Positions 21,716 to 41,103 of a stretch of DNA of 43,477 nt are shown here, in pieces. The stretch is from Candidatus Daviesbacteria bacterium. GTDB taxonomy: Bacteria; Patescibacteriota; Microgenomatia; Daviesbacterales; UBA10151. Under the pieces are notes generated by a model. The model had not been told where the DNA came from, made no database searches, and saw nothing but the letters and a program-made list of their open reading frames with translations. A program made the translations under genes and the position numbers. The stretch covers positions 1 through 43,477 of the forward strand of contig JACPKL010000007.1 in assembly GCA_016187035.1 (NCBI GenBank), in the 5' to 3' direction. How positions within the stretch are numbered: the first letter of the stretch is position 1; every line of letters starts with the position of its first letter.

Positions 21716-21743
21716 ATTAGGATTTTGATATAGTTTTACCTAG

Positions 21744-21773
21744 TTGACATATTTCGGGTTTTATTGGTAGAGT
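21744..21773 (+). promoter_or_regulatory. Sigma70 promoter of lexA
   Basis: TTGACA (21744-49), 18-nt spacer, TGn-TAGAGT (21768-73). Confidence 0.75.
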
Positions 21774-21786
21774 ATATGGTGTTAAT

Positions 21787-21876
21787 ATGCCTATTACTTT
21801 ATACCGCAGACAAAAACAAATATTGGGCTTTACTGTCGAAGACAGGAAGACCAAAAAGGATATATTATGCCTATAA
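21787..21876 (+). other. 29-codon upstream ORF whose first 15 codons encode the same peptide as the LexA N-terminus (recoded duplicate)
   Basis: Translates to MPITLYRRQKQILGFTVEDRKTKKDILCL*; out of frame with lexA (80-nt offset); stop lies inside lexA codons 3-4. Confidence 0.85.
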
Positions 21877-22484
21877 CGCTTTATCGACGCCAAAAGCAAA
21901 TTTTGGGATTCATCAAACAATATATTGAAAAATATGGTTATTCCCCAACGCTGGGTGAAATAGCTGAAGCAATTGGTGTTTCTTCTTTGGCCACAGTCCA
22001 TGAACATCTGCAGGCTTTAGCTCATAAAGGAGTTATTAAAAGATTTGAAGGAGCAGTCAGGGGAATTGAAGTTTTAGACCAAAAAATTTCCAATGCTTTA
22101 CAGGGAATTGAATTGCCTATTTTAGGATTTATTGCTGCCGGCCAGCCAATCATGACTTATACTGATCCTGATGCTACTGTTAAAGTTGCCCCTTCTATGG
22201 TCTCTGGCAAAAAAAGGTCCTATGTTTTACAGGTTAAAGGAGATTCCATGATTGAGGAAGGAATATTAGATGGAGATTATGTGATTATTGAGGAACAGAA
22301 TACAGCTCATGACGGAGATATTGTAGTAGCTCTTTTAGATAATGGTTTGGCTACTTTAAAAAGATTTTTCAGAGAGCCAAATAGGATCAGACTTGAGCCA
22401 GCCAATTCTTCTATGGCTCCAATGTATGCTACAGATGTAAAGATTCAGGGAAAATGTGTCGGGGTAATTAGAAGGTTTCAGTAA
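21867..22484 (+). CDS. lexA: SOS transcriptional repressor LexA
   Basis: wHTH region (YSPTLGEIAEAIG), IAAGQP cleavage site, VKGDSM serine, ATLKRF lysine. Confidence 0.97.
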   Translation: MPITLYRRQKQILGFIKQYIEKYGYSPTLGEIAEAIGVSSLATVHEHLQALAHKGVIKRFEGAVRGIEVLDQKISNALQGIELPILGFIAAGQPIMTYTDPDATVKVAPSMVSGKKRSYVLQVKGDSMIEEGILDGDYVIIEEQNTAHDGDIVVALLDNGLATLKRFFREPNRIRLEPANSSMAPMYATDVKIQGKCVGVIRRFQ

Positions 22485-40907: not shown

Positions 40908-41103
40908 GGCCAGCCTCGACTAGACGTCGAGTCTAGGCGGGCCAAGATGAATCACCAGAATAGTTTACCTCTTCGAGTCTGAGCGATGAGGCTGAAAGCC
41001 TCAGAGTCGATGACCTGAGCACTTCGATAAACTCAGTGTAAACTTGTCGAAGGGCTCCCTAACAATAAGGCCTGCCCTGAGCAAACGAAGTGAGTCGAAT
41101 GGG
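40908..41103. repeat. Cluster of four GC-rich palindromic elements, two of them nested (CCTGAGC...GTCGAAGG class)
   Basis: CTAGAC-GTCGA-GTCTAG (40920-36); TGAGGCT-GAA-AGCCTCA (40987-41003) inside CTTCGAGTCTGAGC...GAGTCGA; CCTGAGC[ACTTCGATAAACTCAGTGTAAAC]TTGTCGAAGGG (41014-54); GCCCTGAGC...GTCGAATGGG (41074-103). Confidence 0.8.

What the first reader, a model, noticed from the sequence alone, without database searches (positions are those of the whole stretch)
21787..21914. Synonymously recoded duplicate of the first 15 lexA codons, 80 nt upstream of lexA
Seen: ATGCCTATTACTTTATACCGCAGACAAAAACAAATATTGGGCTTT (21787) and ATGCCTATAACGCTTTATCGACGCCAAAAGCAAATTTTGGGATTC (21867) both encode MPITLYRRQKQILGF. 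By my count 10 of 15 codons differ and none changes an amino acid. A 35-nt spacer separates them, with a CTGTC-GAA-GACAG hairpin and an AAAGGA SD-like motif. The upstream copy follows the promoter and reads on as a 29-aa ORF ending inside lexA. Interpretations (inference): (a) the scar of allele replacement or integration by a foreign lexA; (b) a maintained leader peptide coupling translation; (c) less likely, a -1 slip at C-AAA-AAG giving a LexA with a doubled N-terminus; (d) a strain-chimeric assembly.
Basis: partly seen in the sequence, partly recalled or inferred. Interest (0 to 1): 0.72.

Follow-up and report, generated by a model that had tools for sequence, protein, structure and literature searches.

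The report
Doubled, silently recoded lexA gene start
In one tiny uncultured (Daviesbacteria-like) bacterium, the DNA-damage repressor gene lexA has two starts that encode the same 15 amino acids with different codons. Most likely an 80-base, foreign-looking patch (a hairpin plus a substitute gene start) was inserted into the original gene, turning the old start into a short upstream reading frame.

Summary
Copy 1 (21787-21831) and copy 2 (21867-21911) both encode MPITLYRRQKQILGF. They differ at 12 bases in 10 codons, and all differences are silent. An independent Logan assembly reproduces the stretch base for base.

Nothing similar was found at about 220 related lexA loci, in three gap-limited pattern scans of 185,579 species genomes, or elsewhere in this genome.

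- **Copy 1 is the ancestral start.** The promoter-to-copy-1 block lines up at 78-82% identity with relatives' lexA starts, which lie 6-13 nt after the -10 box. Its codon choice is typical of this genome.
- **Copy 2 looks foreign.** Its 15 codons are strongly atypical (z -3.1), while lexA codons 16-205 look native (z +2.7).
- **A hairpin sits at the junction.** A 13-bp hairpin (-11.5 kcal/mol) straddles the copy 1/spacer boundary.

Best reading (about 0.6): an insertion of at least 80 nt (21832-21911), carrying a hairpin, an SD-like motif and an imported substitute start, arrived by recombination with diverged lexA DNA. The old start survives as a 29-codon uORF that ends 10 nt inside lexA. A selected leader peptide, a frameshift fusion and misassembly are less likely.

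A mirror-image case at the uvrB 3' end of a relative suggests a recurrent class.

The parts
21726..21735 (+). Conserved upstream motif TGATATAGTT (family consensus TGATnTAnnT) just 5' of the -35 box. It may be a regulatory or operator element. It is not part of the duplication.
   Evidence: Column consensus of 86 non-redundant relatives anchored on TTGACA.
21744..21773 (+). lexA promoter: -35 TTGACA (21744-21749), an 18-nt spacer holding the family-invariant TTCGGGTT..TTGG, and -10 TAGAGT (21768-21773).
   Evidence: Best sigma-70-like site in the region, 10 of 12 matches. It is conserved in 86 relatives as TTGACAnnTTCGGGTTnTnTTTGGTAnnGT.
21787..21831 (+). Copy 1: the ancestral lexA start (codons 1-15), 13 nt after the -10 box. 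It is now the head of a uORF.
   Evidence: The promoter-to-copy-1 block (88 nt) aligns colinearly at 78-82% identity with relatives' promoter-to-lexA-start. Relatives place the lexA ATG 6-13 nt after the -10 box. Codon choice is typical of this genome (z -0.13, P 0.43).
21787..21876 (+). uORF of 29 codons (MPITLYRRQKQILGF-TVEDRKTKKDILCL). Its TAA stop lies 10 nt inside lexA, and lexA is in the -1 frame relative to it.
   Evidence: ORF list and sequence. That it is translated is inferred from orthology of its ATG to working lexA starts in relatives.
21823..21854 (+). 13-bp imperfect hairpin TTGG-G-CTTT-A-CTGTC / GAA / GACAG-GAAG-A-CCAA. It straddles the copy 1/spacer junction and ends 2 nt before the SD-like motif.
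   Evidence: -11.5 kcal/mol, z -4.0, 0 of 200 shuffles as stable. It is in the top 0.9% of 35-nt windows of this genome.
21832..21866 (+). 35-nt spacer. It is unique in the genome and the family. Read in the lexA frame it gives CRRQEDQKGYI, which weakly resembles LexA residues 6-16.
   Evidence: No second copy in the genome. A 28-mer with up to 3 mismatches is absent from the 95 other family genomes. No significant match to the leaders of 105 and then 200 relatives. The LexA-like reading has P of about 0.005-0.007, post hoc, and none of 19 leadered relatives shows it.
21856..21860 (+). SD-like AAGGA, 6 nt before the lexA ATG.
   Evidence: Read from the sequence. SD-like motifs are only weakly enriched genome-wide (18% versus 12% at random), so its role is inferred.
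21867..21911 (+). Copy 2: the substitute first 15 codons of the working lexA gene, with foreign-looking codon choice (ACG, CGA, CGC, CTT, AAG, TTC).
   Evidence: Codon-usage z -3.1, reached by 0.6-0.7% of genome windows. Only 0.24% of random synonymous encodings of this peptide score as low, and only 3% of 200 orthologous starts score as low.
21832..21911 (+). Inferred inserted patch of at least 80 nt (spacer plus substitute start). Removing it in silico joins copy 1 in frame to codon 16 and gives the same LexA protein.
   Evidence: Inference from the sharp codon-usage switch (z -3.1 for codons 1-15, +2.7 for codons 16-205) and from copy 1 lying at the ancestral position. The right-hand boundary is not resolved and could lie up to about codon 50.
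21867..22484 (+). lexA, 205 aa, intact. It has an N-terminal winged-helix domain, an S24 peptidase domain, the AAG cleavage site, the GDSM serine and the LKRF lysine.
   Evidence: Pfam PF01726 plus PF00717. 75-93% identical to Daviesbacteria LexA proteins. It is the only lexA in the assembly.

Best explanation
The ancestral lexA of this lineage was a leaderless or near-leaderless gene whose ATG lay 13 nt after the -10 box. That start is copy 1.

A short piece of diverged lexA 5' DNA was then recombined into the gene after codon 15. The piece is at least 80 nt (21832-21911). It carries a 35-nt stretch that completes a hairpin, an AAGGA motif, and its own version of codons 1-15.

The right-hand joint lies in homologous lexA sequence, so the new start runs in register into the native gene body. 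The left-hand joint is illegitimate.

This could have happened in two ways. One is homology-facilitated illegitimate recombination after DNA uptake. The other is ordinary double recombination with a donor that already carried such a stub-hairpin-substitute-start arrangement.

The two copies are silent recodings of each other because each evolved as a real lexA start in a different lineage. The short frame itself need not be under selection.

Consequences (inferred):
- The old start is still read, giving a 29-residue peptide.
- Ribosomes melt the hairpin, run over the new ribosome-binding site and ATG, and stop 10 nt inside lexA.
- LexA is therefore made from the new start, either directly or by termination-reinitiation.
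- Autoregulation at the conserved promoter is untouched.
For: **Shown**
- The feature is real and independently assembled.
- Copy 1 with its promoter and 13-nt leader is colinear at 78-82% identity with relatives' lexA starts. Among 95 relatives with a recognisable promoter, the lexA ATG lies 35-43 nt from the -35 box in 55 of them.
- Codon usage switches sharply. Copy 1 has z -0.13, copy 2 codons 1-15 have z -3.1 (0.6% of genome windows), and lexA codons 16-205 have z +2.7. Copy 2 is in the lowest 3% even among 200 orthologous starts, and those that score lower come from GC-richer relatives.
- The arrangement is absent, intact or decayed, from about 220 lexA starts. Three double-start pattern scans of 185,579 species genomes found nothing, while a single-motif control found at least 119 hits.
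- The copy 1 to copy 2 distance (12 of 45) equals the distance between genera (mean 9.9). It exceeds twice the window's terminal branch (0.1 substitutions per site). Divergence in place would therefore have to predate the split from relatives that lack the duplication.
- The lexA leader is very changeable in this family. Leader class changes at least 31 times on a tree of 94 sequences.
- comEC is present, so a DNA-uptake route exists.
- A mirror-image recoded gene end plus hairpin exists at the uvrB 3' end in relative L194.

**Known from the literature**
- Homology-facilitated illegitimate recombination joins foreign DNA by one homologous and one illegitimate end (abstract of PMC3240628; PMC5361080).
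Against: - No donor was found. The spacer matches no leader among 200 relatives, no lexA leader carrying that hairpin in 185,579 species, and no viral contig.
- Only 4 of 200 relatives encode the identical 15-mer, so the donor must have been a fairly close relative, or the identity is selected.
- The codon-usage and hairpin statistics were chosen after looking at the data.
- The left joint shows only a 1-nt microhomology.
- This genome is the sole member of its genus, so an old duplication on its own branch kept by selection is not excluded.
- No reads, transcripts or ribosome data could be examined.
Confidence: 0.6

Rival explanations
1. This is a dedicated miniature mobile cassette. A small hairpin element travels together with a recoded substitute gene end. 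It inserts into the first or last codons of conserved genes without killing them, and spreads through the flanking gene homology. The lexA case would be one member of a recurrent, unpublished class in CPR bacteria. This is a sub-case of the best explanation in which the insertion is element-driven rather than accidental.
For: - The layout matches: old start, strong hairpin at the junction (z -4.0), then a foreign-looking substitute start.
- A second case found here independently: the uvrB 3' end in L194 is present twice, with 11 aa the same, 9 silent differences and a hairpin between the copies.
- Hairpin repeats are active in this genome and family, and sit in lexA leaders of five relatives.
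- Many earlier scan notes report the same layout at other genes. These are leads only, not evidence.
Against: - The lexA hairpin and spacer are singletons. There is no second copy in the genome, none in the 95 other family genomes at up to 3 mismatches in 28 nt, and none at any lexA in 185,579 species.
- The L194 hairpin is unrelated in sequence and is also a singleton among the loci held.
- No recombinase is linked to the site.
- No other recoded duplicate exists in this genome.
Confidence: 0.2
2. This is a selected leader peptide or translational-coupling device. An old duplication in place of the lexA start is kept because translation of the leaderless uORF loads ribosomes, opens the hairpin next to the ribosome-binding site, and hands ribosomes to lexA. 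Both copies would be held by purifying selection.
For: - Twelve silent and zero replacement differences.
- The uORF ATG sits where relatives start lexA.
- The hairpin ends 2 nt before AAGGA, and the uORF stop overlaps the lexA start by 10 nt.
- SD-like motifs are weak in this genome, so coupling could matter.
- Both copies keep the variable residue Gly14, which only a few relatives have.
- The spacer looks faintly like a decayed third copy in the lexA frame (P about 0.006). If that is real and of equal age, it contrasts with the intact copy 1.
Against: - There is no conservation in any of about 220 relatives, including the closest at 92-93% identity.
- There is no reason why all 15 residues of a DNA-binding helix should be needed in a leader peptide.
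- Long residence in this genome should have given copy 2 typical codon usage, but it has z -3.1.
- The copy divergence exceeds twice the terminal branch length.
- The hairpin does not sequester the SD motif or the ATG, and the 151-nt leader as a whole is not unusually structured (z -0.6).
- There is no Rfam match.
Confidence: 0.13
3. This arose from serial tandem duplication of a 48-nt unit (codons 1-16, starting exactly at the leaderless +1). A CTTTA-microhomology deletion then put copy 1 out of frame and left the middle copy (the spacer) to decay.
For: - The arithmetic fits: 46 nt + 34 nt = the observed 80-nt spacing.
- In the lexA frame the spacer reads LYCRRQEDQKGYI directly before the ATG, against LexA LYRRQKQILGFI (P 0.005-0.007).
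- None of 19 control leaders shows such a reading.
Against: - There is no nucleotide-level similarity of the spacer to either copy (P 0.14-0.23).
- The test was made after noticing the resemblance.
- It does not explain the foreign codon usage of copy 2.
- It needs selection on copy 1, which has no support from relatives.
Confidence: 0.05
4. This is an artefact (a chimeric assembly of two strains), or a programmed -1 frameshift that makes a LexA with a doubled N-terminus.
For: The lexA frame is open back to 21786 (open frame 232 aa), and a C-AAA-AAG sits in the uORF. The MAG is only 84.6% complete.
Against: - An independent Logan contig, seen in 2 samples, is identical over 3.6 kb.
- The copies share at most 8 consecutive bases at aligned positions, so no graph path can mis-join them.
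- There is no true X XXY YYZ heptamer and no structure after the putative slip site.
- An open frame of 27 codons has roughly 0.14 probability by chance (my estimate).
Confidence: 0.03

Closest known systems
Integrative elements that carry a surrogate end of their target gene (e14 prophage in E. coli icd, leaving the icdC fragment)
   Same: The insert brings its own copy of the gene end, so the gene stays intact. The displaced original end remains next door as a fragment. The two copies differ mainly by silent changes (PMC13626634).
   Different: Here the insert is about 80 nt and has no integrase or any other gene. It sits at the 5' end rather than the 3' end. The displaced fragment is only 35 nt away, keeps the promoter and is probably still translated. 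There is no identical core repeat at the two joints.
Homology-facilitated illegitimate recombination and the 'orphan' fragments left by displacement in T6SS, Rhs and CDI loci
   Same: Incoming diverged DNA is anchored by homology on one side and joined illegitimately on the other. The resident piece is displaced, not deleted (PMC3240628 abstract; PMC5361080). comEC is present here.
   Different: The known cases move whole genes or toxin tips at 3' ends. Here only about 80 nt at a housekeeping repressor's 5' end is involved. No donor is known, and the left joint shows only a 1-nt microhomology.
Regulatory leader peptides and translationally coupled uORFs (ermC, tnaC, secM; termination-reinitiation at overlapping stop and start codons)
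   Same: A short ORF upstream of the gene, a hairpin between them, and a uORF stop that overlaps the downstream start.
   Different: The uORF is not conserved in any relative, and its sequence copies the gene's own N-terminus. The hairpin does not mask the ribosome-binding site. No stalling motif or alternative fold was found.
REP, MITE or Rickettsia-palindromic-element-type hairpin repeats inserted in or beside genes
   Same: A small hairpin lies at the insertion joint. This genome and its relatives are full of such hairpins, some of them in lexA leaders.
   Different: Those elements are multi-copy families and do not bring a replacement gene end. The lexA hairpin is a singleton.

Membership tests
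LexA repressor (the gene itself) | N-terminal LexA DNA-binding domain plus S24 peptidase domain, an Ala-Gly cleavage site, and a Ser/Lys dyad | tested here: met
   PF01726 and PF00717 on the product. AAG, GDSM and LKRF are visible in the translation. 75-93% identical to LexA of Daviesbacteria.
Regulatory leader peptide / attenuator | Leader ORF conserved among relatives | tested here: not met
   About 220 lexA starts have no upstream copy, intact or decayed (best 7 of 15, which is noise level). The three closest relatives have single starts.
Regulatory leader peptide / attenuator | RNA structure that masks the downstream ribosome-binding site or forms alternative folds | tested here: not met
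   The hairpin 21823-21854 ends before AAGGA. The 151-nt leader has z -0.6. No Rfam family matches.
Regulatory leader peptide / attenuator | Translation of the uORF changes expression of the downstream gene | not testable with these tools
   This needs a reporter assay or ribosome profiling. The organism is uncultured.
Surrogate-gene-end integrative element (e14/icd type) | Insert supplies a diverged replacement of the gene end, and the original end is displaced | tested here: met
   Copy 1 is at the ancestral position with native codon usage. Copy 2 has foreign-looking usage and joins a native-looking gene body.
Surrogate-gene-end integrative element (e14/icd type) | Insert encodes an integrase or recombinase and is bounded by identical att core repeats | tested here: not met
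   The insert is about 80 nt with no ORF of its own. The longest stretch the two copies share at aligned positions is 8 nt, and it lies at the head of each copy, not at the joints.
Homology-facilitated illegitimate recombination scar | A foreign segment with one joint in homology and one without | tested here: inconclusive
   The right side runs in register into lexA. The left joint (TTT|ACTGTC) shares 1 nt with the native continuation. Foreignness is supported only by codon usage. No donor was found.
Multi-copy hairpin repeat (REP/MITE) | Several related copies in the genome or in relatives | tested here: not met
   Single copy in the 1.04-Mb genome. None in the 95 other genomes of the family at up to 3 mismatches in 28 nt.
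Programmed -1 ribosomal frameshift | Slippery X XXY YYZ heptamer in the zero frame with a downstream stimulatory structure | tested here: not met
   The uORF codons contain no such heptamer. C-AAA-AAG lacks the first X, and the only hairpin lies upstream of it.
Diversity-generating retroelement (template/variable repeat pair) | Differences confined to adenines of one copy | tested here: not met
   The 12 differences involve T, C and A in both copies.
Simple tandem duplication | Flanks of the repeat unit also duplicated at the nucleotide level | tested here: not met
   The spacer shows no significant nucleotide similarity to either copy or to the adjacent lexA coding sequence (P 0.14-0.23). It also does not resemble the 35 nt before copy 1 (10 of 35, my count).

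The most novel reading that the evidence does not exclude
The lexA double start is one instance of an undescribed class of gene-free 'insert-and-rescue' mini-cassettes in ultra-small (CPR) bacteria. In this class a short hairpin travels with a recoded substitute copy of the first or last codons of a conserved gene. It enters by recombination through the gene's own homology, and it leaves the original gene end as a stub that is still translated. Here the stub would make lexA translation depend on a leaderless uORF.
Probability: 0.25. Interest if true: 0.75.

Novelty: new variant of a known kind. Interest (0 to 1): 0.5.

Why it matters
- **A warning about silent-only differences.** This case shows how a perfect "purifying selection" signature (12 silent and 0 replacement differences) can arise without any selection on the short frame. 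Two orthologous gene starts from different lineages were simply placed side by side. That matters for uORF and leader-peptide discovery.
- **A rare snapshot of gene-start evolution.** It catches a leaderless gene being converted into a gene with a leader and a ribosome-binding site, with the old start kept as a uORF. In this family the lexA leader has changed class dozens of times.
- **A possible new mobile class.** If the hairpin plus substitute gene end proves to be a recurrent, mobile arrangement, it would be a new and extremely small way for DNA to live inside essential genes of reduced genomes. A second case at uvrB in a relative and many unverified scan notes point that way. It would also mark recombination between CPR lineages.
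- **A candidate expression change.** For LexA itself, a coupled uORF could change how much repressor is made from the autoregulated promoter.

Tried and rejected

**Donor search (nothing found)**
- The spacer versus leaders of 105 and then 200 relatives was not above shuffles.
- The hairpin-plus-lexA-start pattern in 185,579 species genomes gave 0 hits.
- Viral contigs gave only LexA-like proteins at 34-39% identity and no exact junction match.
- The best LexA hit in 5.8 billion proteins is 93% identical.

**Other double starts (nothing found)**
- Three gap ranges covering 42-132 nt between ATGs gave 0 hits, while the single-motif control found at least 119.
- A lenient peptide scan of 223 starts found nothing.

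**Own genome**
- There is no other recoded duplicate. The runner-up pair on contig C10 lies in frames full of stops.
- There is no second lexA.

**Ideas rejected**
- DGR-type mutagenesis: the differences are not specific to adenines.
- A second promoter inside the spacer (AAGACA-16-TATATT): it scores 9 of 12 at chance frequency, and its -10 box abuts the ATG.
- Longer LexA gene calls of 212-222 aa in databases: most are over-extensions that read the promoter's TTGACA as a TTG start (MTxSG...), and none is a duplicate.
- Homology of the spacer to the CCTGAG...GTCGAAGG leader element of L002, L004, L079, L182 and L187: the alignment is unconvincing, and GTCGAAGAC is not enriched.

**Uninformative**
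- Nucleotide distance cannot say which copy is native, because silent sites are saturated across the family.
Full report
**What is there**

The window is the whole contig C4 of a 1.04-Mb, 13-contig, 84.6%-complete genome. Its LexA is 75-93% identical to proteins that depositors name LexA of Candidatus Daviesbacteria, in the Microgenomates/Patescibacteria.

Between a divergent 232-aa gene and lexA lies one strong promoter, TTGACA-18-TAGAGT at 21744-21773. Thirteen bases later the sequence ATGCCTATTACTTTATACCGCAGACAAAAACAAATATTGGGCTTT begins (21787-21831). Eighty bases after that ATG, the sequence ATGCCTATAACGCTTTATCGACGCCAAAAGCAAATTTTGGGATTC begins (21867-21911) and continues as an intact 205-aa lexA.

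Both stretches encode MPITLYRRQKQILGF. Ten codons differ at 12 bases, and none changes a residue. Similarity stops dead at codon 16. The upstream copy reads on for 14 more codons and stops at TAA 21874-21876, which is 10 nt inside lexA.

**Is it more than chance, and is it real?**

- Only 21-24% of single substitutions in these codons are silent. Twelve silent out of twelve therefore has a probability near 1e-8, and no run out of 300,000 simulations reached it.
- In a scan of the whole genome for peptide-identical direct repeats within 600 nt, this pair ranks first. All other high-ranking pairs are in-frame repeats inside repeat proteins, or lie in frames full of stops.
- The copies are as different as two random encodings of the same peptide. 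The expectation is 9.3 base differences and 12 were observed, which is saturation.
- A contig built independently by Logan from run SRR12113424, and reported in two samples, is identical to the window over 3,631 nt including both copies. The longest stretch the copies share at aligned positions is 8 nt, so an assembly graph has nothing to mis-join. I treat misassembly as very unlikely.

**What relatives show**

I collected lexA loci from four sources:
- 30 genomes of the same family;
- 80 metagenome contigs;
- about 119 further genome contigs;
- the three closest proteins in a 5.8-billion-protein collection.

In all of them lexA begins MP(I/V)TLY(R/K)RQ, and none has a second copy upstream. 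A lenient search of the 400 nt before 223 starts found at most 7 of 15 matching residues, which is noise level. Three pattern scans of 185,579 species genomes for two such starts 42-132 nt apart found nothing. The single motif alone found at least 119 loci, which served as a positive control.

The promoter is strikingly conserved, with consensus TTGACAnnTTCGGGTTnTnTTTGGTAnnGT. In most relatives the lexA ATG follows the -10 box by only 6-13 nt. In other words, lexA is leaderless or nearly so: the distance from the -35 box to the ATG is 35-43 nt in 55 of 95 relatives.

Copy 1 sits exactly there. The 88 nt from the -35 box to the end of copy 1 align colinearly, at 78-82% identity, with the same block of relatives such as L019, L033, L041, L065, L003 and L046. 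Copy 1 is therefore the ancestral lexA start in its ancestral place.

**Which part is the newcomer?**

Nucleotide distances cannot answer this. Silent sites are saturated across the family: orthologous starts differ by 9.9 ± 2.7 bases on average, and the two copies differ by 12.

Codon choice can answer it. I scored each stretch against this genome's own codon usage and corrected for the peptide:

| Stretch | Codon-usage z | Note |
|---|---|---|
| Copy 1 | -0.13 | ordinary |
| lexA codons 16-205 | +2.7 | better than average |
| Copy 2, codons 1-15 | -3.1 | reached by 0.6-0.7% of genome windows |

Only 0.24% of random synonymous encodings of this peptide score as low as copy 2. The switch happens between about codons 10 and 15. 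Copy 2 uses ACG, CGA and CGC, which each make up 4-5% of their synonymous sets here. Even among 200 orthologous starts only 3% score as low, and those come from GC-richer relatives.

The simplest reading is that the native gene was copy 1 followed directly by codon 16. A patch of at least 80 nt (21832-21911), made of the spacer plus a substitute start, came from elsewhere. Joining 21831 to 21912 in silico restores an in-frame gene for the identical protein.

**The hairpin and the spacer**

The small CTGTC-GAA-GACAG stem is the core of a 13-bp imperfect hairpin at 21823-21854. Its left arm includes the last 9 nt of copy 1. It has a free energy of -11.5 kcal/mol and z -4.0, with 0 of 200 shuffles as stable. 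It lies in the top 0.9% of 35-nt windows of a genome that is rich in hairpin repeats. It ends 2 nt before AAGGA, which is itself 6 nt before the lexA ATG.

The wider 151-nt leader is not unusually structured (z -0.6), and no Rfam family matches.

The spacer is unique by every search:
- it has no second copy in the genome;
- no copy of a 28-mer at up to 3 mismatches occurs in the 95 other genomes of the family;
- it has no significant match to relatives' leaders;
- no lexA in 185,579 species has that hairpin in its leader;
- there is no viral match.

One oddity remains. Read in the lexA frame, the spacer gives (LY)CRRQEDQKGYI directly before the ATG, which resembles LexA LYRRQKQILGFI. The probability is 0.005-0.007 against shuffles, and none of 19 relatives with leaders shows anything similar. 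At the nucleotide level there is no significant similarity (P 0.14-0.23). I noticed this resemblance before testing it, so I treat it as unexplained rather than established.

**How it most likely arose**

Each copy evolved as a real lexA start under LexA's own constraints, but in different lineages. Recombination then put them side by side. That accounts for silent-only differences without any selection on the uORF.

Divergence in place is less likely, for three reasons:
- The copies differ by more than twice the length of this genome's terminal branch in a lexA tree (0.1 substitutions per site). The duplication would then have to predate the split from close relatives that have a plain single start.
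- Long residence in this genome should have given copy 2 ordinary codon usage.
- The mechanism for the alternative is established. Homology-facilitated illegitimate recombination joins incoming DNA by one homologous and one illegitimate end (PMC3240628 abstract). It has been proposed to explain displaced 'orphan' fragments in T6SS and Rhs loci (PMC5361080).

The genome encodes ComEC, so a DNA-uptake route exists. Alternatively, a donor that already had stub-hairpin-substitute start could pass the 80 nt on by ordinary recombination in the flanking lexA homology. That would explain why only the patch looks foreign.

Points against this account:
- No donor was found.
- Only 4 of 200 relatives encode the identical 15-mer, so the donor must have been fairly close in protein terms.
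- The genome is the only member of its genus, so an old event on its own branch that was kept by selection is not excluded.

**How it most likely works now (inference)**

The promoter, and whatever operator it contains, is unchanged. The transcript should start about 6-8 nt before the copy 1 ATG. That is where relatives with a 42-nt distance from the -35 box to the ATG start their real lexA without any SD motif. The uORF is therefore probably translated.

Ribosomes would unwind the hairpin, pass over AAGGA and the lexA ATG, and terminate 10 nt inside lexA. This geometry is typical of termination-reinitiation coupling. SD-like motifs are only weakly enriched before genes in this genome (18% versus 12% at random, with crude start calls). 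The new start may therefore depend partly on that coupling.

A -1 frameshift fusion has no support. There is no X XXY YYZ site and no structure downstream of C-AAA-AAG.

**Context in the family**

The region between the lexA promoter and the ATG changes often. On a tree of 94 lexA genes, built without the first 15 codons, leader class (leaderless, short or long) changes at least 31 times.

Five relatives (L002, L004, L079, L182, L187) share a hairpin-type element ending ...GGARTCGAAGG directly before the ATG. The same vocabulary occurs in this window at about 40960-41100. In L025 a 21-nt hairpin inserted at the leaderless ATG leaves an 8-codon uORF that stops 1 nt before lexA.

In L194 the uvrB 3' end is present twice. 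The first is an in-frame ...AARLRDQIKELSI-stop. Then come 29 nt containing the hairpin AAAGGCGAG-GCT-CGCCCTTT. Then comes an out-of-frame AARLRDQIKELGLIR-stop. The two share 11 identical residues and differ by 9 silent changes. That hairpin is also a singleton among the loci held.

**Relation to earlier notes of this scan**

After I had reached the recombination-scar reading, a word search showed many earlier, unverified notes from other CPR genomes. They describe a small hairpin next to a silently recoded, foreign-looking substitute gene end at the starts of typA, lepA, uvrB, pth, pilT, fusA, polA and a NYN-domain gene, and at the ends of uvrA/uvrB, rpoC/rpsG and recA.

These notes made me look harder at the hairpin and scan relatives for more cases. 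I count only what I tested here: the codon-usage switch, the junction hairpin, the L194 case, and the negative result that the lexA hairpin is not a repeated element. A dedicated mobile cassette therefore remains a possibility (about 0.2-0.25), not the conclusion.

**Comparison with what is known**

The arrangement works like an integrative element that carries a surrogate gene end. The classic example is e14 in E. coli icd, which leaves the icdC fragment and a trail of silent differences (PMC13626634). But this insert has no integrase, no att core and no genes. It is about 80 nt long and sits at a 5' end. It therefore fails the membership test for that family.

It also resembles a scar of homology-facilitated illegitimate recombination, but no donor is known. 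It is not a conserved leader peptide, a multi-copy hairpin repeat, a DGR pair or a frameshift site. Each of those failed a defining test.

**Verdict**

This is a real, statistically robust and so far unique feature. Most probably it is a recombination-derived patch that replaced the start of a leaderless lexA and stranded the old start as a uORF. I rate it a new variant of a known kind, with moderate interest (0.5). It would be higher if the recurrent-cassette reading or a coupling function were shown.

Noticed in passing
L194, about 1011-1105 (gene on the - strand): The uvrB 3' end is present twice in a relative. First comes an in-frame ...AARLRDQIKELSI-stop, then 29 nt containing the hairpin AAAGGCGAG-GCT-CGCCCTTT, then an out-of-frame AARLRDQIKELGLIR-stop. 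The two share 11 residues and differ by 9 silent changes. This is the mirror image of the lexA case. The hairpin is a singleton among the loci held.
   Followed up: partly
window 21726-21773, and the same block in 86 relatives: The lexA promoter is conserved far beyond its -35 and -10 boxes. The spacer TTCGGGTT..TTTGG is almost invariant, and a TGATnTAnnT motif precedes the -35 box. These are likely to include the undescribed LexA operator of this lineage.
   Followed up: no
L002-L238 lexA loci: lexA is leaderless or near-leaderless in most Daviesbacteria-like relatives, with the ATG 6-13 nt after the -10 box. Leader class changes at least 31 times on a tree of 94 genes.
   Followed up: partly
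L002, L004, L079, L182, L187 (the 36-58 nt before the lexA ATG); window about 40960-41100: A shared leader element, GTACTATAGTCCTGAGyGA..GAAAGGArTCGAAGG, sits directly before the lexA ATG in five relatives, and L002 has an extra 21-nt hairpin nested inside it. The same CCTGAGC.../GAGTCGAA hairpin vocabulary forms a cluster near the end of this window. The GTACTATAGT at the leaderless position might be a decayed 4-codon stub of ATGCCTATTACT.
   Followed up: partly
L025, the 30 nt before the lexA ATG: An ATG at the leaderless position is followed by a 21-nt hairpin insert, giving an 8-codon uORF (MVRLRSPL) whose TAA lies 1 nt before the real lexA ATG. This is another way the old start becomes a uORF.
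   Followed up: no
window 21828-21866, lexA frame: The spacer reads LYCRRQEDQKGYI in the lexA frame directly before the ATG, which resembles LexA residues 5-16. P is about 0.006 post hoc, and none of 19 control leaders shows it. There is no nucleotide-level similarity. It could be a decayed third copy or a coincidence.
   Followed up: partly
database proteins P0004, P0029, P0086, P0091, P0100, P0104: Public gene calls of LexA at 216-222 aa are over-extensions. The caller reads the promoter's TTGACA..TTCGGGTT in frame as a TTG start, giving MT(V/S/P/A)SG(F/L/C)....
   Followed up: yes
whole genome G000: SD-like motifs are only weakly enriched before long ORFs (18% versus 12% at random positions, using crude start calls). 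This suggests that much initiation in this genome does not depend on SD motifs.
   Followed up: no
L112-L191 record titles: Many contigs that carry clearly Daviesbacteria-type lexA genes are deposited as 'uncultured Gammaproteobacteria' or 'Pseudomonadales' MAGs. This looks like a labelling problem in those records.
   Followed up: no
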